Of a stretch of DNA of 64,000 nucleotides, positions 5,928 to 55,875 are shown piece after piece. The stretch is from Paraspadella gotoi (Eukaryota > Animalia > Chaetognatha): assembly GCA_051294375.1 (NCBI GenBank), contig JBJCIZ010000239.1, positions 6,298,746-6,362,745 of the forward strand, read 5' to 3'. The position numbers and the translations under genes are program-made. Within the stretch, counting starts at the first letter, position 1, and each line of letters starts with the position of its first letter. The notes below the pieces were generated by a model, which saw nothing but the letters and a program-made list of their open reading frames with translations, searched no databases and was not told where the DNA came from.

Positions 5928-5964
<37 letters not shown>

Positions 5965-6079: not shown

Positions 6080-6122
<43 letters not shown>

Positions 6123-6388: not shown

Positions 6389-6432
<44 letters not shown>

Positions 6433-6434
6433 GA

Positions 6435-6479
<45 letters not shown>

Positions 6480-10062: not shown

Positions 10063-10232
10063 GCCATCACTGCGCCTCCGCCGTCGTCGTCTGCAGCATC
10101 GTCGCCTGGGACGGTGTTCCCTCCACACCGGCCGACATCCTCTACGAACGCATCGCCAACATCGTCTGCAAGATGGGCGTACCCACTCTGCGCCGCTGCG
10201 CCGCCAACGACAACAAGACCTGCGCCTGCCAG
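10063..10232 (+). CDS. TET: TET exon (HHC...RRC...CACQ zinc ligands)
   Basis: Reads HHCASAVVVCSIVAWDGVPSTPADILYERIANIVCKMGVPTLRRCAANDNKTCACQ, bounded by CAG and GTAAG. Confidence 0.93.
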
Positions 10233-10983: not shown

Positions 10984-11112
10984 GGTTGGGACATGTCGAA
11001 ATGCGGCCTCTGCTTCAGCTTCGGCTGTTCCTGGTCGATGTATTACAACGGATGTAAATACGCCATTTCCTCGGCGCCGAGAAAGTTCCGGCTCAACGAC
11101 CGGACGAACAGG
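10984..11112 (+). CDS. TET: TET DNA-recognition-loop exon, variant A
   Basis: 129 nt, phase 0-0: [43 protein letters not shown]. Confidence 0.92.
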
Positions 11113-11264
11113 GTACGCGAAAAAAGGGGGGAAATTAATTTTTTTTTCTTNNNNNNNNNNNNNNNNNNNNNNNNNCTCTCTCCTCTCTCGTGCGTGCGTC
11201 TGCGTCGCTTCTCTCTCTCTCTTCTCTCTCTCTCTCTCTATCTCTCTCTCTTCTCTCTTTAAAA

Positions 11265-11514
11265 GGGATGGAGCATGGGAAAATGTGGGAGCGCGTGTGT
11301 GGTGCGGTTCAGGTTGCGCGATGGTAGCCATATGTACACCAACGGTTGCAAATACGCGCGAAAGCAGAACTCTCCCCAAAAAGTGGTCGTTTTGAACGTA
11401 AAAACGATTGGTAAGTGCGAAAGATTTAAAAAAAGGTAAGTTAAAGGGAAAGGACGACTCGTCGCGTGGATGAAAACGTGGAGAAGATGCCGTAAGGCAG
11501 AAGGCCTGATTCCG

Positions 11515-11560
<46 letters not shown>

Positions 11561-14500
11561 ATCTCTCTCTCTCTCTTTCTCCTCTTTTTATTATGAAAAT
11601 AAAACATTTCTTTAATATTATAAAATTAAAATATGTCTAAATATATAATATGAGGAGACTAACTCCTTTGAAAATATTTCGTCTCTTTTTCCTTCTACCG
11701 CTCTCTCTCTTCTCTTCTCTCTCTCTCTCTCTCTCTCTCTTTCTTCTTCCTCTTCTCTCTCTCTCATATATACTTTACCCTCTCTGCTCTCCCTCTCCCT
11801 CCAGTCCGTGGAGGAGATCTGTTCCAAACAGTATCGGACTCCGAGGAAAGACCTCGGTCCGCAAATGGGAGAGCTGGGACGACGCTTGAAAAGGAGCAGC
11901 AGCGCCCCGCCAATCAAAAAATCGACCCTTACCCGATTGGAGGAAGATGACCTCAGGCCAGGGCTGCCAGAATCTCGCCACCCTTACCTGGCGCCAGAGT
12001 TTATTTCGAAACTATACGTGCCAGAGGGCTTATCTCAATATGGTGAGGGAAATTTGTGGGAATGGAAGAGGAGAGAGAGAGAGAGAGAGAGATGAGAGAG
12101 AGAGAGAAGAGAGGGAGGAGCAGAGATGAGAGAAGCAGAGCATTTGACTCCATTTCAACCTCCTTCACAGAGTCAACACGAGCAAGTCGCTCCCCACTGC
12201 CGCCTCGGCGAACTGCCGGGCGACCCTCGCCGGCGTCCACCGCCTGCATTGACTTTTGCGCTCACGCCCACAAGGATATCACAACATTGAACAACGGGTT
12301 GACCACAGTGGTCACCCTGACCCCGGCATCTCGCGGCCTCTCCAAACCGGACATGGAGCAGCTGCACACGCTGCCCGCTTTACCGCCCGGAAACCACGGA
12401 ACGAGTTCGGGAGCGAGGAGGCGCAAAAGGCCAAGGATCGCCGCGGGTAAGTAAGGGGAGGGGGTTTATGTTTTTATCTTTCTTCCTTTCGTTGTTTTTT
12501 TCGTTTTTCGTTTATCGTTTTTCGTTTTTTTTTTCTTCCAATTTTTCTTTCTTTCCTTTTTTTTCCTTGTTTCTTTCTTTACTTCTTTTTTTATTTCTTT
12601 CATCAAAACCATAAATATCCTTTACGCCAATCCAAACCTCACTCCCACAGGGTCATGTCGATGCCTACCAAATACCCCACCGAGGTTAAGGATTACGCGC
12701 CGTCCCCATGACGCCCTGCAAGCGGCGCAAGAAGACAGAGGACGGGAAGACCCCTACCCCTGGTAAGGGTCGATGCGTCCGCCGGGACTATCCCCCAGCA
12801 AGGTAAGGAAGGTGGGAGAAAGGCGTTTTGGGTGGGTTTTTGGCTCTTAACTTGCCTAACGAACTTACCTTTTGACCCTTTTATTTTTATCGTTTTTCTT
12901 TCTTTCTTTCTTTCTATCTTTCTTTCTTTTATCTTTCTTTCTTTTCTTTCTTTCTTTCTTTTTTATTTCTTTCCTTTCTTTCTCTTCTTTTCCTTCTCTC
13001 TCCCCTTTTCCTCCAAGGCGGAGAAGGCGAATGCGCATCTCCTCAGGTCTCATGGCCTCCCATGGGACTCACTTCAAACGCCCGTTCGACTCCAAACTTC
13101 ATCCGAGCGATCGGGCGGCGGCCAAGGAGCGGCTCGTCTCGTCCTCCAGCGACGGCGGCGGCCGGTAGCGGCAGCGGCGGTCAATTCGGGCACGCTTTTT
13201 AATTGTTGAGTCGAGTCGTTGTTGTTTTTTACTCAGTCTCTCTCTCTCTCTCTCTCTTTTTTTACATTTATTGCTCTTATTAATTCATTCATTGCCCGTT
13301 ATTTCCGGTAGATCCGTCAGCCAGCAAGAGTCAAGTTTCCCTTCTCAGCCAAAATCCTTCCTCGGTAGGTGGCAAATTAACATTGATTAAATGACTTAAA
13401 TCCTTGAGAAATAATAATAAAAAATTCTCTATTTTCAGAGTCGTTTTAAGTTACATCCGTTTAATGTTTTTTCTTCACGATATGTACAAATGATGGTTTA
13501 AATTATTTGTTTTTTAAACCCTTTTTCTGAGATAAGAAAAGTTTTCTTTGTTTTCACAACGAAATATTAATGAAAAAATCCAGACATGTTTCGGTTCTTA
13601 ATTTAACTCTTTTTCCATAAATTAAATAGTTGTTCGAGCTCTCTTTTCCAAGAGCGCCCCATTATCTGTTCCTTTTCCCGTAATTTCATTTTAACTTTAA
13701 TATTTTGCTTAAATATATTCAACTTTATAACCAACCATAAACCTTTTCCCTAACCTTAATCCCAAACCTTAACGTAATCCTAAACCTTAACTTAAACCCT
13801 AGTCCCTATTCCTAATCGCGCGTAACCTTATCTCTAAACTCAACCCCTCACCCTTAATCTTAACCCTTAGCTTCCAACCTAATCTTTAATCTTAAAAAAT
13901 TCATCTAATTTAAATTTTTGATTAAAAAGGGTTTCGTTTCTGGGAAAATAAGCTATTGCATCTTTTTCTCGCTACAATTAACTAAATGTTTTTCCTTTCT
14001 TAGACCGTCGCTTCTCGGCGGCCAATTCGACCGCCAACGCTTACCCGTTAACGCAGGCATTCGGCGCTTTCCAGATTCCAATGGACAACCTTTCGCCTTG
14101 GGGCGGCCGCCTCAGAGAGTTAACTTTTCCTTGCTCACGCCAATATTTATTTAGTATTTACTGTATTTACTATTTACTAGTTTAGTTTATGTATTAAACT
14201 TTTATTGATAAATGTATTTCATATCAAAAGATAGTACTGTTGCTTAATATATTCATACCGCCTCAGTCCATTACCTTTCGGCAAATACCATTGACTCAGA
14301 GGTGGAACCGAAACGCACCATCCCAGGCGTAGTGTTTCCATCCACAGTCCGCACGACTTCCCTCTGCGTTGGCAAAGCGAGACGTCCGAGGGGTAACCGC
14401 CGCCAGTGACTGAATGACCGTTCACTGAGGGTCGGAAGACTCCAAAGCTAAACAGTCGATTGCCCATCCCAAATAGAGAGGCATCATAGTTTCAACCCGG

Positions 14501-16000
14501 CTGTTGCGCGTAATACAATACAGACATCATCCAACAATGAAAGAGAATAAATAGTTGACAATTTCGCTAGTCCAATTCAGAATTTTTGAAAAAAGTAAAA
14601 AGTCTGAACTATCCAAAACCAATCCATCAAGTGCCGGTTACACTTTCTCCGTAAACCAATCTTTTAACTTAAATAAATTATTTCCTCTGTTCAGCACGGA
14701 ATAGCATGTTCCTCAAAACTCGATGCGTGAACCAAGCTTCGATGGGCCGGTGAGACATATAAACAATAGATAAATAAACAAATAAATTAAATAAATAAAT
14801 AAATGAATGAATGAATGAGATGAATGAATGAATGAATGTAATTGAATGAATTGAATAAATAATAAATAAATAAATAAATAATAAATAATAAACCATAAAA
14901 ATGAAATAAATATTATAATTAAATAAATAATAATAATAATAAAATATAATAAAATAAAATATAATAAATATAATAAATAAATAAATATAATATCATAAAA
15001 AGAAGAAAAAACCTGCTCGCAAGAGAACCAACCAAGCTTATGTTTCCTTTCCTCGCCCCCCCCCCCCTTAAACGCAGAACCACCGATGCGCCCTCCATCG
15101 GCGGCGTCATCCTGCGACGCAGTCGACAATCAGCGAAGACGCCGACGACGACGGTACTCCGGGACGTCACCCCGTCATGAGTGACATGAAGAATAATTTC
15201 AAGGACGAGTCCAATTGGTAATGGTTTGCTCTCCTTTTCATTTCTGTTCCAGAACTTTAATTTTAAAATTAAAGTTAAACCTTTAACCCAATTCTAAGCC
15301 GTTTACCCTAATCCCCAGCTTTAATATCTCAAACCCTAATCCTCTTTACCCTTAAACCTAATCCCCTAACTTTGTAACCCTATTTTCAAATAAAAAAAAA
15401 ACGGATTCGATCCGAATTTTAAAATGATTATGGGGCGTTTGGAGGAAAATGAAAGTCCTGTATTTGTAATTATGTACGTATCATAACCTACTTTATATAC
15501 ACCCTAATATTATTCCATATTACCGTTTTATGACTGCTTCCTCCCTCCCTCCCTCCTTCCTCCCTCCTTTCCTCCCTTTCCTCCCTTCTTCTCTCCCTCC
15601 TCCCTCCTCCTTTCCTCCCTTCCTCCTCCCAGGGGGCGTGGCCATCGCTCTCTTCACGGCTGCCGTCCTCTTCGAATGGCGCAGAAACGAGAACTTCCAC
15701 GCCACCAACTTCGATCAGAGAACGAACAGAACGAGGCGACCGGATCAGTAATTGGTCTCATATATATCAGGTAGCTTTGATACAGGGGCGTGTATTAGGG
15801 TTAGTATTACAGGGACGTGCAGGAGAGGTAAGCAACCATTCGCAAAGTTAAACAGAAATATTAATAGTTTAGTTTTTAGTTAGTTTTAGTTAGTTTTTTA
15901 GTTCTTAGTTTTTTTAGTTTAAATATAAGCTTGCCACTTAAATCTCTTAACAATTTATCTTTCCCTCACCTTTCCCTCCCTCACCTTCCCCTCCCTCTCT

Positions 16001-16066
<66 letters not shown>

Positions 16067-16572
16067 CTCAGCACAAAAACATGAAACGCGTGTGAGACAC
16101 GCGTCGAGAGATTTACTTGAAAAACTGGAGGAGAAGAGGAATGAGAAAAAAGGAGGAAACGTGGTCGGCAGCTTGGCGCGGCGGCGTGCCGCGTCGGCAG
16201 CGCGGCGGCTGCTGCAGGCCGGTTCAAGCTTGCCTCTACCTGGCTGCGTCGCAAGCAGCTGCATTCGTTTCGGTTATACGGGCTGGGCCAGCGTCGAGGG
16301 TTTCCTCCTGGCCAAGCCGCGGAGGTCAAACCTTCAAAAAAGTCAACTGAGAATGAGGTATTTTTTTATGTTTTTGCTGTTTTTGCGTTTATGGGTTTTT
16401 TTTGGTTTTGTTGTTGTTTTTTTTTTTTTTTTTTATGTTTTTTTGAGAGTTTTTTTTGACGAAGATATATATATGTAGCTGGCATTTTTGTTTATAATAT
16501 TGCAATTTTTTTTAGACACTAAATCACGATGCTCGTTCGCTCGCTTAACTTACTCACTTTCTCAATAACTCA

Positions 16573-16603
<31 letters not shown>

Positions 16604-18400: not shown

Positions 18401-18411
18401 TCCGTCAAACC

Positions 18412-18442
<31 letters not shown>

Positions 18443-18489
18443 CTCTCTTCTCTCTCTCTTTCATCTCTCTCTTTTTTTCTCTTTAAAAG

Positions 18490-18617
18490 GGATGGAGCAT
18501 GGGAAAATGTGGAGCCTCGTTCTCCTTCGGTTGCGCGTGGAGCATGTACACCAACGGTTGCAAATACGCGCGAAGCAGAATTCCCAAAAAGTTTCGTTTG
18601 AACGAAAAAAACGATTG
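18490..18617 (+). CDS. TET: TET DNA-recognition-loop exon, variant B
   Basis: Reads [40 protein letters not shown]..., with an AAAAG acceptor and GTAAGT donor; 128 nt as written, 129 nt if the A-run has 8 As as in the copy near 5808. Confidence 0.85.
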
Positions 18618-18727
18618 GTAAGTGCGAAAGATTTAAAAAAAGGTAAGTTAAAGGGAAAGGACGACTCGTCGCGTGGATGAAAACGTGGAGAAGATGCCGT
18701 AAGGCAGAAGGCCTGATTCCGCTCTGC

Positions 18728-18774
<47 letters not shown>

Positions 18775-19018
18775 ATCTCTCTCTCTCTCTTTCTCCTCTT
18801 TTTATTATGAAAATAAAACATTTCTTTAATATTATAAAATTAAAATATGTCTAAATATATAATATGAGGAGACTAACTCCTTTGAAAATATTTCGTCTCT
18901 TTTTCCTTCTACCGCTCTCTCTCTTCTCTTCTCTCTCTCTCTCTCTCTCTCTCTTTCTTCTTCCTCTTCTCTCTCTCTCATATATACTTTACCCTCTCTG
19001 CTCTCCCTCTCCCTCCAG

Positions 19019-19234
19019 TCCGTGGAGGAGATCTGTTCCAAACAGTATCGACTCGAGGAAGACCTCGTCCGCAAATGGGAGGAGCTGGACGACGCTGAAA
19101 AGGAGCAGCAGCGCCGCATCAAAAAATCGACCTTACCCGATCTGGAGGAAGAGATCGAGGCCAGGCTGCAGAATCTCGCCACTTACCTGGCGCCGGTTTA
19201 TTCGAAATACGTGCCAGAGGCTTATCTCAATATG
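19019..19234 (+). CDS. TET: TET exon (...EEEIEARLQNLATYLAPVYSKYVPEAYLNM)
   Basis: 216 nt, phase 0-0, CAG/GTGAG boundaries; the C-terminal part matches TET LQNLxTxxAPxYxxxxPxAYxN. Confidence 0.92.
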
Positions 19235-19255
19235 GTGAGGGAAATTGTGGGAATG

Positions 19256-19294
<39 letters not shown>

Positions 19295-19328
19295 CAGAGC
19301 ATTTGACTCCATTTCACCTCCTTCACAG

Positions 19329-19599
19329 GTCAACACGGAGCAAGTCGCTCCCCACTGCCGCCTCGGCGAACTGCCCGGGCGACCCTTCGCCGGCGTCACC
19401 GCCTGCATGGACTTTTGCGCTCACGCCCACAAGGATATCCACAACATGAACAACGGGTTGACCACAGTGGTCACCCTGACCCGGCATCGCGGCCTCTCCA
19501 AACCGGACATGGAGCAGCTGCACACGCTGCCGCTTTACGTTCCGGAACCGACGGACGAGTTCGGGAGCGAGGAGGCGCAAAAGGCCAAGATCGCCGCGG
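19329..19599 (+). CDS. TET: TET DSBH exon with the Fe(II)-binding HxD motif
   Basis: Reads [81 protein letters not shown], the canonical DFCAHxHxD...EQLHxLPLY...DEFGS. Confidence 0.97.
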
Positions 19600-19803
19600 G
19601 TAAGTTAAGGGGAGGGGGGAGTATGTTTTTATCTTTCCTTCCTTTCGTTTTTTTTTCGTTTTTCGCTTTATCGTTTTTCGTTTTTTTTTTCTTTCCAATT
19701 TTCTTTCTTTCCTTTTTTTTCCTTGTTTCTTTCTTTACTTCTTTTTTTATTTCTTTCATCAAAACCTAAATATCCTTACCCAATCCAAACCTCACTCCCA
19801 CAG

Positions 19804-19955
19804 GGTCATTCGAATGCCTTACCAAATACCCCACCGAGGTAAGGATACGCGCCGTCCCCATGACGCCCTGCAAGCGGCGCAAGAAGACAGAGGACGGGAA
19901 GAGCCCTACCCCTGGTAAGGGCCGAGGCCGTCCGCCGGGACTATCCCCCAGCAAG
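19804..19955 (+). CDS. TET: TET exon leading into the low-complexity insert
   Basis: Reads GSFECLTKYPTEVRIRAVPMTPCKRRKKTEDGKSPTPGKGRGRPPGLSPSK; CAG/GTAAG boundaries. Confidence 0.85.
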
Positions 19956-20080
19956 GTAAGGAAGGTGGAGAAAGGGTTTTTGGGTGGGTTTGGCTTTAAC
20001 TTCCTAACGAACTTACCTTTTTGACCCTTTTATTTTTTATACCCGTTTTCTTTCTTTCTTTCTTTCTATCTTTCTTTCTT

Positions 20081-20113
<33 letters not shown>

Positions 20114-20786
20114 TTTACTTTCTTTCCTTTCTTTCTCTTCTTTTCCTTCTCCTCTCCCCCTTTTCCTCCAAGGCGGAGAAGGCGATGCGCATCTCCTCAG
20201 GTCTCATGGCCTCCATGGGACTCACTTCCAAACCGCCCGTCGACTCCAAACTTCATCCGAGCGATCGGGCGGCGGAGGAGCGGCTCGTCTCGTCCTCCAG
20301 CGACGGCGGCGGCGGTAGCGGCAGCGGCGGTCAATTCGGGCACGCTTTTAACATGTGAGTCGAGTCGTTGTTGTTTTTACTCAGTCTCTCTCTCTCTCTC
20401 TCTTTTTTTACATTTATTGCTCTTATTAATTCATTCATTGCGTTTATTTCGGTAGATCCGTCAGCCAGCAAGAGTCAAGTTTCCCTTCTCAGCAAAATCC
20501 TTCCTCGGTAGGTGGCAATTAACATTGATTAAATGACTTAAATCCTGAGAAATAAATAATAAAAAATTCTCTATTTTCAGAGCTCGTTTTAAGTTACATC
20601 CGTTTAATGTTTTTCTTCACGATCATGTACAAATGATGTTTAAATTTATTTGTTTTTTAAACCCTTTTTCTGAGATAAGAAAAGTTTTCTTTGTTTTCAC
20701 AACGAAATATTAATGAAAAAATCACAGACATGTTTCGGTCTTAATTTAACTCTTTTTCCATAAATTAAATAGTTTTTCGAGCTCTC

Positions 20787-21084
20787 TTTTCCAAGAGCGC
20801 CCCATTTCTGTTCCTTTATCCCGTAATTTCATTTTAACTTTAATATTTTGCTTAAATATATTCAACTTATAACCCAACCATAAACCTTTTCCCTAACCTT
20901 AATCCCAAACCTTAACGTAATCCTAAACCTTAACCTTAAACCCTAGTCCCTAATCCTAATCCCTAACCTTAATCTCTAACTCAACCCCTCACCTTAATCC
21001 TTAACCCTTAGCTTCAACCTAATCTTTAATCTAAAAAATTCATCTAATTTTAAATTTTTGATAAAAAGGGTCGTTCTGGGAAAA
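20787..21084. mobile_element. MITE-like element with degenerate (CCCTAA)n interior
   Basis: Starts TTTTCCAAGAGCGCCCCATT, ends TCGTTCTGGGAAAA; interior resembles telomeric repeats; same family as 57332-57630. Confidence 0.55.
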
Positions 21085-21371
21085 TAAGGCTATTCATCTT
21101 TCTCGCTACGAATTAACTAAATGTTTTTCCTTTCTTAGACCGTCGCCTTCTCGGCGGCCAACTCGACCGCCAACGCTTACCCGTTAACGCAGGCATTCGG
21201 CGCCTTTCCAGATTCCAATGGACAACCTTTCGCCTGGGGGCGGCCGCCTCAGAGGTAACTTCCTTGCTCACGCCAATATTTATTTAGTATTACTGTATTT
21301 ACTATTTACTATTTAGTTTATGTATTAAACTTTTATTGATAAATAGTTATTTCATATCAAAAGTTAGATAC

Positions 21372-21631
21372 TGTTGCGATATATTCATACCGCCTCAGTC
21401 CATTACCTTTCGGCAAATACCATTGACTCAGAGGGGGAACCGAAACGCACCATCCCAGGCGTAGTGTTCCATCCACAGTCCGCACGACTTCCCTCTGCGT
21501 TGGCAAAGCGAGACCGTCCGAGGGTAACCGCGCCAGTGACTGGATGCGTCACTGAGGGTCGGAAGACTCCAAAGCTAACAGTCGATTGCCCCATCCCAAT
21601 GGGCATCATAGTCAACCCGGCTGTTGCCGTA
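21372..21631 (+). mobile_element. Solo LTR (more diverged copy) in a TET intron
   Basis: TGTTGCG...GTTGCCGTA, the reverse complement of the 55208-55462 repeat; TSD ATAC at 21368-21371 and 21632-21635. Confidence 0.85.
21499..21579 (+). ncRNA. Type-P5 twister-like ribozyme, probably decayed (L4 AAGC changed to AAGA)
   Basis: GTTGGC AAA GCGA GA CCG TCCGAGGG TAA CCGC GC CAGTGAC..GTCACTG A GGG TCGG AAGA CTC CAAA GCTAAC. Confidence 0.6.
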
Positions 21632-21889
21632 ATACAATTACAGACATCATCCACAATGAAAGAGAATAATAGTGACAATTTCGCTAGTCCAATTCAGAAT
21701 TTTGAAAAAAAGTAAAAGTCTGAATATCCAAAACAATCCATCAAGTGCCGTACACTTTCTCCGTAACCAATCTTTAACTTAAATAAATTATTTTCCTCTT
21801 TCAGCACGAATAGCATGTTCGCTCAAAACTCGATGGTGAACCAAGCTTCGATGGCCGGTGAGACATATAACAATAGATAAATAAACAAA

Positions 21890-21920
<31 letters not shown>

Positions 21921-21965
21921 ATGAATGAATGAATGAATGAATGAATGAATGTATGAATGAATGAA

Positions 21966-22008
<43 letters not shown>

Positions 22009-22191
22009 ACCATAAAAATGAATAAATATAATAATAAATAAATAATAATAATAATAAAATATAATAAAATAAAATATAATAAATATAATAAATAAATAAA
22101 TATAAATATCATAAAAAAGAAGAAAAACCTGCTCGCAAGAGAACCAACCAAGTTATGCTTCCTTTCCTCGCCCCCCCCCCTTAAACGGCAG

Positions 22192-22326
22192 AACCACCGA
22201 TGCGCCCTCCATCGGCGGCGTCATCCTGCGACGCGTCGACAATCAGCGAAGACGCCGACGACGACGGTCTCCGGGACGTCACCGTCATGAGTGACAATGA
22301 AGATAATTTCAAGGACGAGTCAATTG
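22192..22326 (+). CDS. TET: TET exon ending the insert (...DVTVMSDNEDNFKDESI)
   Basis: Matches TET SDxExxFxDxxIG; GTAAGT donor. Confidence 0.85.
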
Positions 22327-22721
22327 GTAAGTTGCTCTCTTTTCATTTCTGTTCCAGAACTTAATTTTAAAATTAAAGTTAAACCTTTAACCCAATTTCT
22401 AGCCGTTTACCCTAATCCCCAGCTTTAATATCTAACCCTAATCCTTTTACCCTTAAACCTAATCCCTAACCTTTAACCCTATTTTCAAATAAAAAAAAAA
22501 ACGGATTCGATTCCGAATTTTAAAATGATATGGGGCGTTTTGGGAAAAGAAGTCCTGTATTGTAATTATGTACGTTCTACCTCTTTTTTACCCTTTTATT
22601 CCAATATTACCGTTTTATTGACTGCTCCTCCCTCCCTCCCTCCTTCCTCCCTCCTTTCCTCCCTTCCTCCCTTCTTCCTCTCCCTCCCTCCCTTCCTCCT
22701 TTCCTCCCTTCCTCCTCCCAG

Positions 22722-22852
22722 GGGGCGTGGCCATCGCTCTCTCTCACGGCTCCGTCCTCTTCGAATGCGCAAAACGAGAACTTCACGCCACAACTTCGAT
22801 CAGAGAACCGAACAGAACGAGGCCGACCAGGATCAGTTTGGTCTTTTATCAG
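22722..22852 (+). CDS. TET: TET C-terminal DSBH exon with the distal Fe His and 2-oxoglutarate-binding RxS
   Basis: Reads [44 protein letters not shown]; the next exon at 23157 begins HKNMN. Confidence 0.97.
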
Positions 22853-23120
22853 GTAGCTTGATACAGGGGCGTGTATAGGGTTAGATTACAGGGACGTGCA
22901 GAGAGGTAAGCACCTTTCGCAAAGTAAAAAGAAATATTAATAGTTAGTTTTTAGTTAGTTTTAGTTAGTTTTAGTTAGTTTTTAGTTTAAATATAAGCTT
23001 GCCACTTAAATCTCTTAACAATTTTATCTTTCCCTCACCTTTCCCTCCCTCACCTTCCCCTCCCTCTCTCTCTTCTCTCTCTCTCCCCCTTCTCCTCTCT
23101 CTCTTCTCTCTCTCTCTCTC

Positions 23121-23154
<34 letters not shown>

Positions 23155-25408
23155 AGCACAAAAACATGAACGCGTGTGAGACACGCGTCGAGAGAATTTA
23201 CTTGAAAAACTGGAGGAGAAGAGAAGAGAAAAAAGGAGGAACGTGAGTCGGCGCTGGCGCGGCGGCGCTGCCGCGTCGGCAGCGGCGGCGGCTGCTGCAG
23301 CGTCAGCTGCCTCTACTGCTGCGTCGGCAGCAGCTGCATCGTCGTCGGGCTGCAGCGTCGACGGGTTTCCTCCGGCAAGCCGGAGGTCAAACCTCAAAGT
23401 CAAAACTGGTGAGGTTTTTTTTTGTGTTTTGCTGTTTTGCTGTTTGTTTTTTTTGGTTTTGTTGTTGTTTTTTTTTTTTTTTTTTTGTTTTTTTGAGAGT
23501 TTTTTTTGACGAAGATATATATATGTAGCTGGCATTTTGTTTATAATATGCAATTTTTTTTAGACACTAAATCACGATGCTCGTTCGCTCGCTTACTTAC
23601 TCACTTTCTCAATAACTCATTCTCTCTCTCTCTTCTCTCTCTCTCTTCTCTCTTCTCTCTCTCGCTTCTTCTTCTCTCTCTCTCTCGTCTCTCTCTCTTC
23701 TCCTCCCACCGCGGATATATTTGCATTCTCACCACGGCCTAATCTCACCCCCCCACCCCCCTTTTTTTCCACAGAGCCGCGTTTTCTCAACGACGGAAAA
23801 TTCGTCTCGAACCTTCGACGGCAGTTCGGTCGAGGTTAAGTTAAAAAAGCGGAGGCCGAAAGCATTTGGTTGAGTATCTGGTTCAGTGTTTGGGTCGAAA
23901 TTGAGAATTAGATACGATAATGGGACGCTTTCGGAAGATAGTGCCAACGGTTTAAATCAAAATAATACCGTGCAAGAACTTCTTTGCTAAGTTTAGCGAT
24001 GTTAGACATATATATTAATGCGAGTTACGAATGAGTCGAGTTCTTTACGACTTAAGATATCAATTAGTTAATTATCAAGACTAACAATTAAAATTACTAT
24101 ACGCAATGATTAACATTTCTTTCCCGCAGTTTGAAGAAGACAGAAAAGCCGTTTTACGATCCGACGACGACGACGACGACGACGACGTCGAAAAACCTTT
24201 GTCCGCCCAAGGCGCCGCAGGTACGAACCCTATTGCTCACCGATCGTTTCGTCCGGTCGTTGACTTACTTTTTTATGCTCTACTGTATGAAATTTTTTAA
24301 AAAAATTCTTTGAACTAGTAAAGAATAATCGTATGTGTATACTATACTATACTTAACATACCAAACTATGAAAAAGACTTTGATTGATCTGGATCTTGCT
24401 ATATCTTGTAAGAGGGATGAAGGCCTGAACCCAGCATAGCCTGTCCGTTGTCATGAGCGAAATACCTCAATTTATTAAATGAAAATTAATTAATAATTTT
24501 TGTACCGGTTTTACCTATTTCATAAATGTTGTTCCTTATAAATTAAGTATATAAATTTGAACCAATATAAAATTATTGAATTATTATCCATTACTTTGGA
24601 CAAGCTAAGCACTTTTTTAAAATTATAAGTTTTCCATAAAGATTCTGCCACACTCCCGGGAGCAGCTGGCTTCACTATCTGTGAATGTTCTATGTTCTAT
24701 CTGTGATTGTTGTATGATGTTTTAGGAACTGTTTCAATTTTGTTTAAGGATATATTAATAGATTTCAACTTAAGCAATCTCGGAAATTCGTTTTACAACA
24801 TTTACAACAATTCGCCCTTCACTATACAGGCGTCATCTTTAAACTACGAAAGCGTCATGCCCGAATTTCTGCCCTACGTCTCGCCTTCCCTCACGCCCCC
24901 TACATACTCGTACACGGTCATGCAGCCTTTCGAGGAACCTCTGGTCACCGGTCCTTATCACAGATGGATATGACGTTGAAGAATAAACATGGCATGGCAG
25001 CGGAGCCATGCGCGACATCCGCCCCCTCCCCCACCGACGCTTGGACAATAAAAAAAAGGGACTTTAGCGATGCACGAACGCATAATGACGTATCATGGAA
25101 AAGCGCGAACAATCTCAGCGAAGAAAATAGGAAAACGTTTGTTTTGCTCCAGTTTTTGTTATGCAAAATTTGTGGGTTTTTATTTGGTCTTACGGTTAAA
25201 GATTTTTTAATATATTTAATAATTAATTTTACATGATCATTAGTAGACTTTTTTCTAACGAAAAAATTATTTTCTCATTTCATAGCATTTCTCTCTTTCG
25301 CTCTCTCTTTTTCTATTTATAAAAAATTGGGTGATTATTTATGTTCATGTTTTCACGCATTCATTGACTTCTTCGTCAACCCCGCTCTCTCTCTCTCTCT
25401 TGCTCTCA

Positions 25409-25468
<60 letters not shown>

Positions 25469-41897: not shown

Positions 41898-43820
41898 CAT
41901 TCATTCATTCATTCATTCATTCATTCATTCATTCATTCGTTGATCGACTTATTTTTCAGGATGTTGTCTTGTTGATTTTACCACTGTACCTTGAATGCTT
42001 GGAGAGAGCAAATCGAAAAAGCAAAACAATTATAAAAATGTATTACAATTAATTTTTTAAAAAATCATTTTTGTCATCAATACATTCTGAGACAATCATT
42101 TTTCTTTTTTTTTAAATTTATTTTGTTTTCATTTCCAAAATTTAAAAAATCAAACGGAAAAATAAATTAAGGGACGAATTAAATTTTTCTCGTTCTTTTC
42201 CTTTATTGCTAATTTGTTATCATCGTCGTCGTCGTCGTCGTCGTCGTTTTCGATATTTACTCATTTGAATTCGGTCAGGGTCACTCAACGTCACACAAAA
42301 AAGAAACAAAGGGAAAATAAATAACAATAAAAATGAAAAATATTTTTACTTTGCTCCTGTGGCGGTCAACTTGCTCAAAATAAGGTATTTATTTTTAAAT
42401 TTTAGAAATTTTTTTAAAGTTGTCGACTTCTCTCTGTTTTGTTGACGAAATGTCCAATTTTAACAATTTTGGTTCTATGATAGATATGGTTCGTTTTATT
42501 TTCTTTTCGTCGTTTGTTTGAGGTAGAAATTTAAATAGTTTGTTTATTTTAGTACTGTTTTTTGTTTACTATGTTTACTATGCCGACTATGTTATTTTGC
42601 TTGATGTGATCTGACCGTGAGAATCGCATTTTGTCTTCACTTTTCGAATATAAATGTATTTAAAATTAAGAATTAGTCTTAGAACTACTCACTAATTGCG
42701 TATGATGGTCTCACTTTAACTATCTAAGTGAGCGAGAGAAGGTTTCGTCGTGTCCCTTTGACTGTGTGGATAGCGCCCACACTCAATATGCTCAGTGGAT
42801 CTGAAAGATCACTAACCTAATCCTTAACCCTAGTATTTATCCTAATCCATAACCCGAAGGGCCTAAACTCAAATCCAATCATTTGTCCTCAAAATAAATA
42901 ATTAATAAATTAATAAATTATTATTAATACATTATTATTAATAAATTATAATTATAATTATTATTATTATTAATAAATTAATAATCAAGTTTGATTATCA
43001 ATTTAAGGTGACGTTTTGGGAAATTAAGGAATTTTGAGCCTTCATGAAACTTTTTGCTTTCTTTTTTTGGGTTTTTTCCCGTTGGGCGGGGCTGCTCTTT
43101 TTTTTAAATTTTTGGGGGGTTAAAAAGTTTCCGGCCGAAGCGACATCTCTCGGTTCCCGCCAGACATTAGAGGAAGAGCAGAGAGCCGGGCTGTGATGAT
43201 GACGAGGGAAAGAGGAAAAAAGGGAGGGAGCTCATCTTCGTCTCGTTTCAACTCTTTTAAGCTGAACTGTTACCAGTGCGTAGGGGAGGCTCCCCTCTCA
43301 CATGACTGTTTTTTGTTATTTTTTTTTTACAGCTTTTAGCCGCTTATTCACTTCTCGCGATAAATGCTTCTTCATTTTTACTGGAAACTCATTTCTCTGA
43401 TTCTTTTTTTTTTATTTTTTTTATCTATAATTACTGACGATTGCGCAATATATTGTAATTTGTAGTTTTATGCAAGTTTTACAATAATCAGTTTGACGCG
43501 TCGTATCGCGTCGTTTTTCTATAACAAAACACGTATTTATATTGAAGGTGGCGATCCATTCATTTCGTTCATCTTTTATCGTTAATTCTTTTAATTATTT
43601 TAGACCTCTGGTGCGTATAAATCTCCAGGAATGCCCTGAAGTCTAATCTTCGTTATCGCCAATTTAAGTTCCAGATGTATTAAAGGTCGATCAACCCTTT
43701 AAACTCTTTTTTTTTTCAGACCCAGGTACCTAATATTAATAAAGAAAAAGATTTATAAAATAAAATCTTTTTTGTAATAAAAAAAAAATAACTCATCGAA
43801 GTTTCCTGCTCGCCGAGACG

Positions 43821-46625
43821 ATGAATTTCGCCCGTCACGATTTGGAACGGGATTTGGCGGCGTCGTCTGCCTCGCCGTCAACGCCCTCGTTAACATCGAG
43901 CCCTATGGAATCCCGCAGCCCTCGTCTCCCGGCTCCGGCTGCGACGCCGTTCCCCGTCGGCCTTTTCTCCGCTTCGACGCCGTCGCGCGACGCCGACGAG
44001 GCGCCATCTTTCTCGGCCCGCATCGACGACGACGACAACCGTCTCCTCATCGCCGACGCCGATTTCGAAGACTCCGCGACGCCGGGTATCTCTCTCTACG
44101 AGGAAACGGCGCCGCCTTCCGTCGGCGTTTCCTTCCATTGCAGCTTTTGCTTCTCTCGATTTTCTACGAAGGGTGAAGCGGAAGTTCACGTCGCCGAAGC
44201 ACATCAAAATCTCGCCGAAGTCGTCATCGAACGTCTAGACGGAAACGTCGTCGTCGCTGAGATCGGCGCCGCCACGCCCACGCCCACAACCACACCCTCG
44301 ACCGCAACCGCGGAGATCATCCACTGCGGCGTCAACCCGGCCGCCGCCGCTGCAGTCGCCGCTATTTCACGCTCCAATCGATACACTCAAAGATTTATCT
44401 GCCGCCTTTGCGACTACAGCGCCGCCAGCAAGAAATCTCTGCAGAAGCACGTCGTGACCAAACACTCGGACGAGTTCGATCAAAACTCGCTCAACCGTCG
44501 CGAGGACAAAAACGCGGCGCTCAAAGCCGGATTGAAATCCTCCTACGCGAAGCTTCCTTTTGCTTGTAACGCTTGCGACAAGAGATTTCACAACGAGGTT
44601 GGTCTGCGCAGACACCAGCAGCTGAGTCATCGCAATTTGATGTGTTCAATTTGCGGAGAAGTTTTCGCGGCGTCGAGATATTTGTGGCGACACGGGGAGT
44701 TGGTTCACGGAGGGCTGCTGACGAGCTTAGCGTCAACGTCGTCCGAGAATAACTCCATCGAACTCGCTCCAGCGCTGGAGATTAACTCCATCGAACCTGT
44801 CGTCATTCCGGCTGAGATCAAATTTCCAAAGACTCAACATCGCGACGTCGGTTCTGAAGCGGATCCCCGCTCGCTGCCCGAGAGAAACGTTCCACTCCTT
44901 AATCAGACAAACTTGCCGCAATCCGTCTTGAACGTGGCGCAACATGTGGCCCGGCAGGTTATTCAGCAAGCCTCTCGGCAGCAATCTTCGACCATGTCGC
45001 AAGCTTCGCATGAGTTACCCTCTCAGACTCCCGCGATGCAATTGCCCATCATCAGCAGCGTGATGTCGTTGAATTCGAAGTTGGCGACGCAACCTCCGCC
45101 AATGAGCTCCAGTTTACAGCAACGTTCATCGATTCGGCAGAATAATCAGCCATTGCCGATTAATCTTCCGGAACGGCCCCAAATTAGCCTCGCACGTTAT
45201 CCTTCTTTTCAGCAGGGGACGAATCAACCTCAGCCACTGAGGATCTCGCTCGCTCCTTTTAGTAACACCAATTCCACATTGGCCAATGGTTGTGTCCGGC
45301 CTCTCTTGACTCGGGCTTTTCCCAATTCTCTTCAAAGTCAACGGCCCGTGCAGCAACAGGCAGCACCCAACTCCTTACAAAACATATTACAACTTCGTCC
45401 ACCTGTGCAAAACTTCAATCAAAATAGGTTTCAGCAAATTTTCCGGCCTTTGACCGTGCAGCAACAAAGAACTCAAATCCGTCAATCCCTTCTGCAGCCC
45501 ATGAGACTTCCTCTCCAAAATTCCGTCCAGTATCAACAGCAACAGCATCATGCGCAACTCCATAACCAACCTGCTCCACCTTCGACTTCCTTTCCTTCAG
45601 TTCGGTCCCAGTCTTACCAGGTGTTCCAGGTGAATCCAACTCGACTTCCTTCCGGCCCGACCCTTCAATCAGCTCGTCAACCTCCTCCGCTGCAGAGGCT
45701 ATCGGTGGATCCGTCGACGAGCGGTTCCGACCCGTGCAGAAGGCCGTCGCTCTCCATTTCTGGCCCGCAACTGCGGCAAATGCTGCAATGTCCGGGTATG
45801 AGCTTGCAGCTGCCGCGAACAACTGCTTCTGCTACGGCGTCGTGCGTGGCGGGGCAGTGGCGTCGAGCGTGGCGTGGTCAGCGCGGCGTCGTACGTGCGG
45901 GGCAGCGGCGTCGTCACGTGGCGGGTCAGCGGCGTCGAGCGTGGCGGGGTCAGCGGCGTCGAGCGTGGCGGGCCAGTGGTGGCGTCGAGGTGGCGGGGCC
46001 AGCGGCGTCGAGCGTGGCGGGGCAGCGGCGTCAGCCCGCCGTGGCAAGGATTATTAGCTGTGGCGTCTCGCCCTCCAGTTTCACGGACCCGCGTCGATCG
46101 CCTCGGCGTCTTTGCCCCCGGCGTCGTCAGATTCGGCGGCCAGGCGGTGTTGCCTCGACGACAGACGTTGCCGAAGGCTTTTACGGCGGAGTAGACGACG
46201 CCGACGTCATCCTCGAGGACGCCGAGGATTCCAATCCAATTCAAGACGTTTCTTCCGTCGTCGGCCCGCAGAAAGACGCCGCCCTCGTCGCCAGCGGTGC
46301 CGCCCCAGCCTCTGCAGCCGTCGCCCCAGTGGCCTTTATCCGTCGTCCCTCCGCTCAGCAGAACCAATGCCTCATTTGCGAATCTTTCTTCGACGATGAC
46401 GACAAACTTCGGGTTCACTTTCTCTCTCACGTGGAGGAAGACTCCAAAGAGTGTCTTCTCTGCGGGACCGAGTTCGAGTCGCCCGTCGCGATGCTCTCTC
46501 ACTTCGGCAAAGACCACGGAGGCTTCGAGAAGCATCGTTGCAGGTTTTGCGAGAAGACGGCCTACCTCAAGCGGTCCCTCAATGAACACATGAAGATTCA
46601 CCCGCCAGAGGAGATTCAGCTGTGA
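43821..46625 (+). CDS. C2H2 zinc-finger protein, 934 aa, with about 7 fingers and a Gln/Pro-rich centre
   Basis: Uninterrupted ATG-to-TGA ORF; CxxC...H...H fingers at CSFC, CRLC, CNAC, CSIC and a C-terminal cluster CLIC, CLLC, CRFC. Confidence 0.9.
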   Translation: MNFARHDLERDLAASSASPSTPSLTSSPMESRSPRLPAPAATPFPVGLFSASTPSRDADEAPSFSARIDDDDNRLLIADADFEDSATPGISLYEETAPPSVGVSFHCSFCFSRFSTKGEAEVHVAEAHQNLAEVVIERLDGNVVVAEIGAATPTPTTTPSTATAEIIHCGVNPAAAAAVAAISRSNRYTQRFICRLCDYSAASKKSLQKHVVTKHSDEFDQNSLNRREDKNAALKAGLKSSYAKLPFACNACDKRFHNEVGLRRHQQLSHRNLMCSICGEVFAASRYLWRHGELVHGGLLTSLASTSSENNSIELAPALEINSIEPVVIPAEIKFPKTQHRDVGSEADPRSLPERNVPLLNQTNLPQSVLNVAQHVARQVIQQASRQQSSTMSQASHELPSQTPAMQLPIISSVMSLNSKLATQPPPMSSSLQQRSSIRQNNQPLPINLPERPQISLARYPSFQQGTNQPQPLRISLAPFSNTNSTLANGCVRPLLTRAFPNSLQSQRPVQQQAAPNSLQNILQLRPPVQNFNQNRFQQIFRPLTVQQQRTQIRQSLLQPMRLPLQNSVQYQQQQHHAQLHNQPAPPSTSFPSVRSQSYQVFQVNPTRLPSGPTLQSARQPPPLQRLSVDPSTSGSDPCRRPSLSISGPQLRQMLQCPGMSLQLPRTTASATASCVAGQWRRAWRGQRGVVRAGQRRRHVAGQRRRAWRGQRRRAWRASGGVEVAGPAASSVAGQRRQPAVARIISCGVSPSSFTDPRRSPRRLCPRRRQIRRPGGVASTTDVAEGFYGGVDDADVILEDAEDSNPIQDVSSVVGPQKDAALVASGAAPASAAVAPVAFIRRPSAQQNQCLICESFFDDDDKLRVHFLSHVEEDSKECLLCGTEFESPVAMLSHFGKDHGGFEKHRCRFCEKTAYLKRSLNEHMKIHPPEEIQL
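45836..46032 (+). repeat. GC-rich minisatellite (about 23-24 bp, GCGTCGAGCGTGGCGGG..CAGCG) inside the zinc-finger ORF
   Basis: About 8 tandem units visible directly. Confidence 0.85.
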
Positions 46626-54321: not shown

Positions 54322-54767
54322 AAATGCTTATTTTTGCCCTTCTTTTCCGATAGCGCTTTATTTCAGACGAAATTTTGAATTAACGTTAATTTTGAAATTA
54401 GGTTTAAATATTAGGCATTGAGGATAAGGATTAAGTAATTGATTAAGGTCAAGATCTAGGTTAGGGATTAGGTTCTGGATTGCGGTTAAGGAATAGGTTA
54501 GGGATTAAGAATAAAAATCAGATTAGTAATTAAGTTTTTGTAAAATTGAGCTTAGAATTTGGGTTATGAATTAGGTTAAAGTTAAGGATTAGGGTTGGGA
54601 ATCATATTAAGTATTTGGAAAAAAAAATTTTAATTAAATGATAATGTATGGCAACAGCCGGGTTGCCTGTGTGGCAAGCTCTGAGAGTTGAGCCACAGCT
54701 TGACGGAGGGCGTTGTCACAAAGAGCACTGGTTCTAAAGAGTTCAAGTAATAATGGGGCATCTCACT

Positions 54768-54847
54768 GTTGGCTTTGGGGGCTTCCGACCCTCAGTGACG
54801 CATCCAGTCACTGGCGCGGTTACCCTAGGACGGTCTCGCTTTGCAAC
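54768..54847 (-). ncRNA. Type-P5 twister ribozyme candidate in the 3' LTR (best-preserved core)
   Basis: Minus strand: GUUGC AAA GCGA GA CCG UCCUAGGG UAA CCGC GC CAGUGAC UGGAUGC GUCACUG A GGG UCGG AA GC CCC CAAA GCCAAC; P2, P3, P4, P5, T1 (CGG/CCG) and T2 (GC/GC) can all be assigned. Confidence 0.75.
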
Positions 54848-55069
54848 GCAAAGGGAAGTCATTAGGACTGTGGATGGAACACTACGCCTGGGATGGTGTG
54901 TTCCCCTCTGAGCCAATGGATTTGGCTGAACGATGGTGGACGTGAGGCGGTGTGAATATACCGCCACAGGATCCCGGACCAAGACATCACTCAGGTTCCT
55001 CAAGCCTGAGAGGTGTCCTGACAAGACTGTCACCATAGTGGAGAGAGAGAGAGAGAGCGCGAGTTGTGG

Positions 55070-55167
55070 GGGCATAGGCGTTTGTTCGTAGCGTACCCCA
55101 GGGGCATAGGCGTTTGTCGTAGCGTACCCGAAGTCGGCAGGGCATAGGCATTTGTCGTAGCGTACCC
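55070..55167. repeat. Three tandem units of about 30 bp (GGGCATAGGCGTTTGTCGTAGCGTACCC) in the element core
   Basis: Visible directly. Confidence 0.9.
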
Positions 55168-55258
55168 TGAGAAGGTTGCGTGTTCGATAGTAGGGCTCCA
55201 CCACTTTTATGGCACAGCCGGGTTGCCTGTGATGCCCATTGGGATGGGGCATCTCACT

Positions 55259-55340
55259 GTTGGCTTTGGGGGCTTCCGACGCCTCAGTGACGCATCCAGT
55301 CACTGGCGCGGTTACCCTAGGACGGTCTCGCTTTGCCAAC
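55259..55340 (-). ncRNA. Type-P5 twister ribozyme candidate in the 5' LTR
   Basis: Same motif with a perfect P5 (GUUGGC/GCCAAC) and one extra base in the P4 5' strand. Confidence 0.68.
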
Positions 55341-55875
55341 GCAGAGGGAAGTCATTAGGATGGTGGATGGAACACTAACGCCTGGGATGGTGTGTTCCCC
55401 TCTGAGCCAATGGATTTGGCTGAACGATGGTGGACGTGAGGCGGTGTGAATATACCGCCACAAATGTTAAAATTGAGGGATGAGGAACAGAAAAAGGCGC
55501 GTTTTGGGAAATTAGTGCCATTATTTTCTTCATTAATAACTTGAAACTATTTTGAAGAATCACCATTTCTGGCGGCGTCGCGCTTCAAACTCAAAACGGC
55601 GTTCGTTGCCGGATATCACGGCGTCGTTGCCGGAATTCGCCGGGTCGTTGCCGGATTGAGAGACGTCAATTCCGGCGTCGATAGTATCCATTGTCGTCGT
55701 CGTCGTCGTCGTCGTTGTCGTCGTTGATTCAACTGGAGGCCGAAGTTCGGTCAAGTCGTTAGCGGCTAAAAAGAAAATATCGTCGTCGTGAAATTTATAT
55801 TTCTCAGAAATCGTCTTCGTTATCATCATCGTCGTCGTCGTCATCGTTATCTTCGTCATCGTCATTAACTGGAAA

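What the first reader, a model, noticed from the sequence alone, without database searches (positions are those of the whole stretch)
54768..54847. Base-by-base fit of the LTR to a permuted (type P5) twister fold
Minus-strand order: P5 GUUG(G)C, P2' GCGA, GA (catalytic G position), T1' CCG, short P1 hairpin UCCUAGGG, cleavage U|AA, P2 CCGC, T2 GC, 7-bp P3 CAGUGAC/GUCACUG, single A, P4 GGG, loop UCGG-AA-GC, P4' CCC, P5' GCCAAC. This mirrors the env22-type twister as I recall it (UAA-NNNN-GC-P3-A-GGG-UCCU-AAGC-CCC...GA-AGG), with T1 swapped from CCU/AGG to CGG/CCG. Caveats: a C-A mismatch sits at the P2 pair next to the active site and P1 is only 2-3 bp, so activity may be reduced.
Basis: partly seen in the sequence, partly recalled or inferred. 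Interest (0 to 1): 0.85.

Follow-up and report, generated by a model that had tools for sequence, protein, structure and literature searches.

The report
Twister ribozyme in animal LTR retrotransposon
A small, protein-free jumping gene of an animal carries in each of its two terminal repeats a sequence that fits the twister self-cutting RNA fold, so it likely copies itself through a cut-and-rejoined RNA circle, a route reported before for plant elements that use a different ribozyme.

Summary
The fit is real. A generic twister descriptor hits only this site, as type P5 (0 hits in 150 window shuffles and 20,000 LTR shuffles). Published Osa-1-4 data show that the C-A mismatch (activity 0.97) and each T1 pair swap (0.74, 0.86) are tolerated.

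The motif lies in the LTRs of an 816-bp non-coding retrotransposon (54647-55462) with 4-bp target duplications, solo LTRs and a tRNA-Trp primer site, but no polypurine tract. The family has at least hundreds of insertions. Across its contigs the ribozyme core is invariant (0 of 67 sites) while the upstream LTR varies (15 of 121).

It may block the ribozyme, or splint the cut ends for ligation.

Best reading: an animal LTR retrozyme-like element that would make a 492-nt circle with a twister instead of a hammerhead. Cleavage, expression and covariation are not shown; Rfam gives only a weak partial hit. New variant of a known kind.

The parts
54647..55462 (-). Complete non-autonomous LTR retrotransposon (TRIM-like), 816 bp, ends TG...TA
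   Evidence: two direct repeats 97% alike over 219 bp; ends and 4-bp duplication checked
55208..55462 (-). 5' LTR, 255 bp
   Evidence: family flanks change at these ends (table 7)
54647..54968 (-). 3' LTR, 322 bp, with a private 82-bp foreign stretch
54768..54847 (-). Type-P5 twister fold, 3' LTR copy (the finding); predicted cut between 54822 and 54821
   Evidence: descriptor hit 54839-54778; partial Rfam twister-P1 hit; element map
55259..55340 (-). Type-P5 twister fold, 5' LTR copy; predicted cut between 55314 and 55313; one extra base in P4 at 55281 in this assembly
54822..55313 (-). Predicted 492-nt cut-to-cut RNA monomer / circle
   Evidence: inferred from the two predicted cut sites; folded
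55170..55203 (-). Primer-binding site: long complement of the 3' half of tRNA-Trp, 4 nt after the 5' LTR (2 nt in most family contigs)
   Evidence: 29 identities in 34 columns to a tRNA-Trp called by ARAGORN in L112 (the 16-nt seed was the search pattern); same stretch in a human Trp probe; spacer variants
54969..55207 (-). Internal region, 239 bp: primer site, three copies of a ~30-nt unit, (GA)8.5; no polypurine tract at its 3' end; no Pfam match
54643..54646 (.). Target-site duplication (CATT on the minus strand), left copy
55463..55466 (.). Target-site duplication, right copy
54672..54753 (.). Foreign stretch that replaces about 12 nt of the 3' LTR downstream of the ribozyme; present in reads at single-copy depth
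1400..1653 (-). Solo LTR of the same family, duplication GGAT; several 1-nt indels in the ribozyme
21372..21631 (+). Solo LTR of a more diverged subfamily (85%), duplication ATAC; T2 broken
14248..14504 (+). Twin of the 21372 solo LTR inside a 7-kb duplicated segment; not an independent insertion

Best explanation
This is a permuted (type P5) twister ribozyme fold inside both LTRs of a small non-coding LTR retrotransposon of an animal, and it likely cuts the element's RNA into a 492-nt unit that would be closed into a circle and copied back to DNA by a helper retrotransposon. Shown: the fold's sequence anatomy; the LTR, target-duplication, solo-LTR and tRNA-Trp primer-site anatomy; the family's size; the invariance of the core. 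Inferred steps: (1) a minus-strand transcript crosses both LTRs; (2) during transcription P2 forms first, T1 and T2 dock as loop 4 emerges, and each LTR is cut at U|A; (3) the monomer's two ends refold into the more stable rod (GGGU with GCCC, CCG with CGG, closed by P5), which would hold the cyclic-phosphate U next to the 5'-OH A for a host RtcB-type ligase and keep the circle from being cut again; (4) a Ty3/Gypsy reverse transcriptase, probably of a tRNA-Trp-primed lineage such as CsRN1, primes at the site just after the 5' LTR and runs round the circle, which replaces the terminal redundancy that the cuts removed; (5) its integrase inserts the DNA with a 4-bp duplication. How the second strand is primed without a polypurine tract is unexplained.
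For: Descriptor 1 hit, 0 of 150 and 0 of 20,000 shuffles; upstream block 324 of 200,000. All departures from typical twisters are of tolerated kinds in published data. In run X1 (4353 contigs) sites differing in >=1% of depth: 0 of 67 in the core, 2 of 7 in the P3 loop, 15 of 121 upstream (Fisher p 0.0013; CpG sites 0 of 11 against 5 of 11). A diverged contig from run X11 has 9 listed substitutions: 8 upstream, 1 in the P3 loop, 0 in the core, and a P3 loop shorter by 4 nt. 3 of 3 independent insertions have 4-bp duplications. The layout (ribozyme in each LTR, 4-bp duplication, primer site, solo LTRs, ribozyme predicted blocked in the mature RNA) is that of plant retrozymes; RtcB closes metazoan retrozyme monomers in vitro. 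P2 is predicted at 0.85-0.98 in early transcripts, and the rod holds the junction in the circle at about 0.55. A crustacean CsRN1-clade Gypsy element uses a tRNA-Trp primer.
Against: No cleavage or RNA data. The rival rod is 9.4 and 14.4 kcal/mol below the pseudoknot-free twister scaffold in the two LTRs, and predicted P2 falls to 0.16-0.61 and then 0.04 before loop 4 is complete (the model gives pseudoknots no energy). No compensatory change in 5 window copies; none of the measures beats its shuffles. Rfam score far below gathering (16.1 against 67.2). The predicted circle is not unusually folded (59% paired, z -1.14, 10 of 100 shuffles as stable), unlike the >70% quoted for retrozyme RNAs. 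No polypurine tract. The LTR downstream of the ribozyme is also free of variants at the 3% level (55217-55277), so invariance is not peculiar to the core; variants are inherited by subfamilies, so the p-values are descriptive. Only the 3'-LTR copy passes the descriptor as assembled; the 21372 copy has T2 broken.
Confidence: 0.6

Rival explanations
1. A silenced or relic twister: the LTR once captured a twister, but the rod fold now wins, and the element moves as an ordinary TRIM; the sequence is kept for another job (packaging, dimer contact, promoter or end signal).
For: Rod predicted at 93-100% in both LTR copies; downstream LTR is as invariant as the core; the circle is not well folded; a young burst from few masters would also give low variation.
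Against: The upstream P2'-GA-T1' block lies outside the rod yet is intact and invariant; only the P3 loop, the one part that the twister ignores, varies inside the motif (but it is also the rod's loop); plant retrozyme hammerheads are also predicted blocked in the mature RNA and still cut.
Confidence: 0.2
2. The twister cuts, but only to trim a linear RNA: it frees the element from host read-through transcripts, as HDV-like and twister ribozymes do at the 5' end of R2 and RTE retrotransposons, and no circle is needed.
For: Twister variants do this for Perere-3 and RTE elements. The weak fold of the circle fits.
Against: Cutting both LTRs at the same site removes the terminal redundancy that LTR reverse transcription needs (passage), and the P5 permutation clamps the two cut ends together.
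Confidence: 0.15
3. Chance: a stable hairpin in a repeat that happens to resemble twister.
For: No Rfam hit at gathering score; no covariation; hairpin-rich sequence matches descriptors more often than shuffles do.
Against: 0 of 20,000 LTR shuffles; 0.1-0.16% for the upstream block given the hairpin; both changed T1 positions are changed on both strands relative to the CCC/GGG of published twisters.
Confidence: 0.05

Closest known systems
Plant LTR retrozymes (Cervera et al. 2016, PMC4918200)
   Same: Ribozyme inside each of two LTRs; 4-bp target duplication; primer site after the 5' LTR; non-coding centre; solo LTRs; ribozyme predicted blocked in the mature RNA; Gypsy helper inferred.
   Different: Animal host; twister P5 instead of type III hammerhead; tRNA-Trp instead of tRNA-Met, with a long (about 34-nt) complement; no polypurine tract; shorter LTR (255 against 300-400 bp) and unit (492 against about 700 nt); circle not shown and not strongly folded.
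Metazoan non-LTR retrozymes (Cervera and de la Pena 2020, PMC7229834)
   Same: Animal, high-copy, non-coding, ribozyme-bounded unit of a few hundred nt.
   Different: Those are tandem repeats with type I hammerheads, under 50% GC, and are stated to lack LTRs, primer site and PPT; this one has LTRs, a primer site, 4-bp duplications and 57% GC.
Twister ribozyme, type P5 (Roth et al. 2014, as described in PMC5408937)
   Same: Block order, conserved A-A, GA, GC, U...AAGC, both pseudoknots, P3 and P5.
   Different: T1 is CGG/CCG (two pairs inverted), P2 has 3 pairs plus C-A, P1 has 2 pairs; below Rfam thresholds; strong built-in rival fold.
Twister variants of S. mansoni Perere-3 and RTE non-LTR retrotransposons (PMC8501958; PMC7761336)
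   Same: Twister serving a retrotransposon in an animal; weak P1.
   Different: Those are type P1, single, at the 5' end of autonomous non-LTR elements; this one is permuted and doubled in LTRs.
Animal TRIMs, including Helenus (Kojima 2024, PMC10886601)
   Same: Under 1 kb, non-coding, two LTRs, 4-bp duplications, tRNA 3'-end primer (tRNA-Trp among those used by wasp Helenus), Gypsy helper.
   Different: Helenus has a tRNA-like promoter in the LTR and a PPT; no ribozyme was mentioned in the passages read. Here the tRNA-like stretch is internal and antisense.

Membership tests
Twister ribozyme, type P5 | Stems P1, P2, P4 with termini in P5, in the permuted order | tested here: met
   definition from PMC5408937
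Twister ribozyme, type P5 | Conserved L1 and L4 nucleotides (N|AA, GA with the catalytic G, U...AAGC) | tested here: met
   the middle T1 pair is inverted relative to Osa-1-4 C26-G48
Twister ribozyme, type P5 | Pseudoknot T1 (3 Watson-Crick pairs) and T2 (GC/GC) can form | tested here: met
   both LTR copies of the full element; T2 broken in the 21372/14248 copies
Twister ribozyme, type P5 | P2 of four Watson-Crick pairs | tested here: not met
   3 pairs plus C-A in 5 of 5 copies; P2 imperfections occur in active natural twisters and G44A keeps 0.97, so this is typical rather than strictly defining
Twister ribozyme, type P5 | Score at Rfam's gathering threshold | tested here: not met
   best 16.1 bits to twister-P1 (a weaker overlapping clan hit would not be listed)
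Twister ribozyme, type P5 | Covariation in stems and pseudoknots across homologues | tested here: inconclusive
   0 compensatory changes in 5 close, error-rich copies; no true relative in 22 pattern hits
Twister ribozyme, type P5 | Site-specific self-cleavage at U|A | not testable with these tools
   needs an in vitro assay
LTR retrozyme | Self-cleaving ribozyme in each of two LTRs | tested here: met
   fold present in both LTRs; activity untested
LTR retrozyme | The ribozyme is a type III hammerhead | tested here: not met
   no hammerhead family hit at E<=10; twister anatomy instead
LTR retrozyme | 4-bp target-site duplication | tested here: met
   3 of 3 independent insertions
LTR retrozyme | Primer-binding site after the 5' LTR | tested here: met
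   tRNA-Trp type, not tRNA-Met
LTR retrozyme | Polypurine tract before the 3' LTR | tested here: not met
   6 purines in the last 12 nt; best window 9 of 12, ending about 20 nt upstream of the LTR
LTR retrozyme | Non-coding central region | tested here: met
   239 bp; the one long stop-free frame has no Pfam match
LTR retrozyme | Highly self-paired monomer | tested here: not met
   59% paired, z -1.14; assembly indels may lower this
LTR retrozyme | Accumulates as circular RNA | not testable with these tools
   only contig runs were available
TRIM (non-autonomous LTR retrotransposon) | Under 1 kb, two LTRs, no proteins, primer site, target duplication | tested here: met
   definition in PMC10886601
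TRIM (non-autonomous LTR retrotransposon) | Polypurine tract | tested here: not met
TRIM (non-autonomous LTR retrotransposon) | Autonomous partner with matching LTR ends and primer site | not testable with these tools
   no genome is held for this window
Metazoan non-LTR retrozyme | Tandem units with type I hammerhead, no LTR or primer site | tested here: not met

The most novel reading that the evidence does not exclude
The first LTR-type retrozyme of an animal and the first built on a twister: a permuted P5 twister works as a two-state switch that cuts during transcription, then refolds to splint its own ends for ligation and to lock the circle, and the circle is reverse-transcribed from a long tRNA-Trp primer site without any polypurine tract. 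Ribozyme-circle replication would then have been invented twice among LTR parasites, with interchangeable ribozymes.
Probability: 0.45. Interest if true: 0.78.

Novelty: new variant of a known kind. Interest (0 to 1): 0.64.

Why it matters
Papers read here draw a line: LTR retrozymes in plants with type III hammerheads, non-LTR retrozymes in animals with type I hammerheads. An animal LTR element with a twister would break that line. It would give genomic twisters a second biological role beside 5'-end trimming of non-LTR elements, and show that the ribozyme class is interchangeable in this life cycle. The T1-swapped P5 form falls below Rfam thresholds and differs inside the rice 16-mer that seeded a recent large twister survey, so more such families may be hidden in animal repeat libraries. 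The predictions are sharp and cheap to test: a cut at a named base and a 492-nt circle.

Tried and rejected

Rfam: nothing at gathering over the window; nothing at E<=10 for the internal region, the 5' LTR or the 21372 copy.

Relatives outside the host: a P5/T1-swap pattern gave 1 viral and 21 metagenome loci; none of the 22 has more than 2 of 4 P2 pairs or BLAST similarity to the element, so all were treated as chance. An exact family motif gave 0 viral loci. The tRNA seed gave 0 tRNAs in 16 viral loci and 10 tRNAs in 120 genome loci, of which 4 Trp, 4 Arg, 1 Thr, 1 Gly: the T-arm seed alone is not Trp-specific, and the acceptor end decides.

Expression: no RNA holder listed. Run X9 is only guessed to be RNA; it covers the flank and the private stretch, and its LTR-to-single-copy depth ratio (about 12,000) lies between those of DNA runs X1 and X6 (about 8,000 and 30,000), so it says nothing on expression. 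The 'goes back 488' joint also stands in a DNA run and is the ordinary LTR-internal junction.

Covariation in 5 window copies: none. Mapping upstream variants on the predicted circle: 10 of 15 at paired sites against 79 of 121 paired, no signal. Plus-strand orientation of the element was rejected: no primer site follows the plus-strand 5' LTR. A tRNA-Ala primer (my first reading of TGGTGGAG, from recall) was rejected once family contigs showed one base fewer there. Sigma-70 scan is not relevant to an animal. Earlier scan notes: nothing. The supplement of PMC11662667, which lists about 1000 new twisters including crustacean ones, could not be read; this motif may be listed there.

Full report
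Setting. The window is animal DNA: a stretch at 9485-9769 matches human TET2 at E 2.6e-28 and a long frame at 43764-46625 holds C2H2 zinc fingers. Microsatellites, N gaps and many 1-nt indels between duplicated segments point to an error-rich assembly. 'Arthropod, probably crustacean' is my inference from repeat content and is not shown. No genome is held.

Observation. A descriptor written from the published twister model, free in the letters of T1, P2, P3 and P4 and allowing one P2 mismatch, finds 1 site in the window, 54839-54778, in the P5 order; 150 dinucleotide shuffles of the window and 20,000 of the LTR give 0 hits. Because hairpin-rich sequence could match more easily, I also fixed the central hairpin and shuffled only the upstream LTR: the P2'-GA-T1' block appeared in 324 of 200,000 shuffles, and in 195 of 200,000 for the nearest 40 nt. 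Rfam is weak: no gathering hit, and a partial twister-P1 alignment of 16.1 bits over P2 to P4' (E 3.1 and 0.41). Overlapping clan hits are reduced to the best, so a weaker P5 hit would not show; the 5' LTR and the 21372 copy gave no hit at E<=10.

Are the departures tolerated? In the Osa-1-4 mutant matrix (PMC5113685; whole main text, supplement part 6 and passages read) the equivalent of the C-A mismatch, G44A, has relative activity 0.97. C26G/G48C has 0.74 and C27G/G47C 0.86, against 0.09 and 0.13 for C26G and C27G alone. These are 2-hour end points and the paper warns that they hide rate losses; both swaps together were not tested. A survey of natural twisters found P1 and P2 imperfections well tolerated and pseudoknot imperfections harmful (PMC11662667, section 32 part 1), and P1 is dispensable (PMC5408937 passages).

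The element. The motif lies in both LTRs of an 816-bp element, 54647-55462, read on the minus strand: 5' LTR 55462-55208, internal region 239 bp, 3' LTR 54968-54647. LTRs start TGT and end TA. The full element and two solo LTRs (1400-1653, 21372-21631) each have their own 4-bp duplication: CATT, GGAT, ATAC; a fourth copy at 14248-14504 is a twin in a 7-kb duplicated segment. Right after the 5' LTR lies a complement of the 3' half of tRNA-Trp: 29 of 34 columns match a tRNA-Trp in L112 (16 of these were the search seed), and a human Trp probe holds the same stretch (PMC5737633, one passage). A crustacean Gypsy element of the CsRN1 clade has a tRNA-Trp site beginning TGGTGA (PMC3587641 passages), which makes that clade a candidate helper; this is a lead only. 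No polypurine tract precedes the 3' LTR. No Pfam match was found in the long open frame.

Family. Laid on one LTR plus the internal region, run X2 gave 8958 contigs, X5 2434, X9 460, X10 1. In X2, 169 contigs run into unrelated sequence at one LTR end and 90 plus 93 at the other, so there are at least hundreds of insertions; summed depth is about 10^6 over the LTR against about 90 on the flank, but the tool warns that this is no copy number. Flank consensus next to the LTR reads ATAT or GTAT, a target preference. The extra P4 base of the 5' LTR (55281) is absent from 110,138 of 113,559 depth in X2, and most contigs carry the full P5 at 54843-54844, so these two defects belong to this assembly or locus. 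The C-A mismatch shows no listed variant: it is a family trait.

Constraint. Run X1 lists 24 substitution rows at >=1% (the count agrees with table 1, so the list is whole). Two lie in the P3 loop, 16 rows (15 sites) in the upstream 121 nt, and 0 in the 67 core positions. I left out 6 rows at 54842-54847, beside this copy's own 1-nt gap, where depth collapses. Fisher p is 0.0013, or 0.005 without the 3 sites where this copy differs from the majority; CpG positions vary 0 of 11 against 5 of 11. One 506-nt contig in X11 has 9 listed substitutions (12 differing letters in all), 8 upstream, 1 in the P3 loop, none in the core, and a P3 loop 4 nt shorter. Against over-reading: the LTR downstream of the motif is as invariant at the 3% level, subfamily variants are not independent, and five window copies show no compensatory change. 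Pattern scans found no relative elsewhere.

A rival fold. The P2 strand begins with the same CCG as T1', and the P1 strand GGGU can pair with the end of loop 4. The result is a rod (GGGU/GCCC, an A-A by A-A loop, CCG/CGG, then P3) predicted at 93-100%, 9.4 and 14.4 kcal/mol below the pseudoknot-free twister scaffold (the model gives T1, T2 and Mg2+ no credit). In growing transcripts P2 is predicted at 0.85-0.98 at first, 0.16-0.61 later, and is lost as loop 4 appears, so cleavage would be a kinetic race. In the 492-nt circle the junction sits in this rod with probability about 0.55. This can be read as a dead ribozyme or as a switch. Plant retrozyme hammerheads are likewise predicted blocked in the mature RNA (PMC4918200 passages), which favours the switch. 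The 21372 copy lacks the rod but has T2 broken. The circle as a whole is not unusually folded: 59% paired, z -1.14.

Mechanism. Shown: anatomy of fold and element, family size, invariance of the core. Inferred: transcription of the minus strand, a cut in each LTR, a 492-nt monomer whose ends are clamped by P5 and the rod, closure by RtcB (shown for hammerhead retrozyme monomers in vitro, PMC7229834 passages), tRNA-Trp-primed reverse transcription round the circle by a Gypsy helper, and integration with 4-bp duplication. Cutting both LTRs at one site removes the R redundancy, and a circle makes up for it. Second-strand priming without a PPT is unexplained. I give this 0.6; a blocked relic in an ordinary TRIM 0.2; linear trimming only 0.15; chance 0.05. 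Taken alone, that the motif is a true twister by descent I put at about 0.9.

Known systems and novelty. It works like a plant LTR retrozyme but is not a member in the strict sense: not a hammerhead, no PPT, circle not shown. Metazoan retrozymes are described as lacking LTRs, primer site and PPT. Twisters are known at the 5' end of non-LTR elements (PMC8501958 abstract and sections 17, 19; PMC7761336 passage) and in viroid-like circles (PMC12542633 and bioRxiv 2022.07.19.500677 passages). Animal TRIMs with 4-bp duplications are known (PMC10886601 passages). Six searches aimed at twister with LTR, retrozyme, Gypsy or the P5 type listed no paper whose title or abstract start reports a twister in an LTR element or an animal LTR retrozyme; most listed papers were seen only as listings, the library lacks most subscription papers, and the supplement of PMC11662667 could not be read. 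PMC6765202, PMC5680766 and PMC10085705 were seen as passages and added nothing against this. Verdict: observation confirmed, interpretation supported, new variant of a known kind, interest 0.64, held down by the lack of cleavage, RNA and covariation data.

Noticed in passing
window 54672-54753: About 82 bp of foreign sequence replace about 12 nt of the 3' LTR downstream of the ribozyme. Covered at single-copy depth in X1, X6 and X9, so it is real and private to this locus. One minus-strand frame reads like a short helix, but has no Pfam match. Origin unknown (templated repair or template switch?).
   Followed up: partly
window 55170-55203: The primer site extends far beyond the usual 8-18 nt: it pairs with the acceptor end and again with the whole T-arm region of tRNA-Trp, with a looser middle. 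On the plus strand it keeps a B-box-like GTTCGA (motif recalled), so a Pol III antisense transcript is possible.
   Followed up: partly
window 54969-54990: No polypurine tract before the 3' LTR; the junction is a short palindrome GGATCC, also seen in family contigs. Second-strand priming is unexplained.
   Followed up: partly
window 55070-55170: Three copies of a ~30-nt unit (starts 55070, 55102, 55140) and a (GA)8.5 run in the internal region; function unknown.
   Followed up: no
window 54848-54968 and 55216-55250 (minus strand): Several small hairpins in the LTR outside the ribozyme; one keeps its 4-bp stem while its 5-nt loop differs in the 21372 subfamily; another, downstream of P5, has a loop region with many low-depth variants (table 5c).
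   Followed up: no
window 21372-21631 and 14248-14504: A more diverged subfamily (85%) with T2 broken, a G-U pair in P4 and in P5, and no rival rod; its predicted minimum-energy fold is the twister scaffold.
   Followed up: partly
window 54350-54600 and 20900-21040: Degenerate TTAGG(G)-like arrays lie within about 50-350 bp of two of the three insertions; may be a neighbouring repeat or a preferred target.
   Followed up: no
window 11210-18482 and 18427-25454; 4513-6743 and 10049-12391; others: Large direct duplications at 85-92% identity with many 1-nt indels, carrying repeated TET exons; probably uncollapsed assembly copies.
   Followed up: no
window 43764-46625 (+): A 953-aa stop-free frame with C2H2 zinc fingers.
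   Followed up: no
L040, L059, L112, L149: tRNA-Trp genes of eukaryote type (my judgement) in contigs of bacterial metagenome-assembled genomes; likely host contamination of those bins.
   Followed up: no
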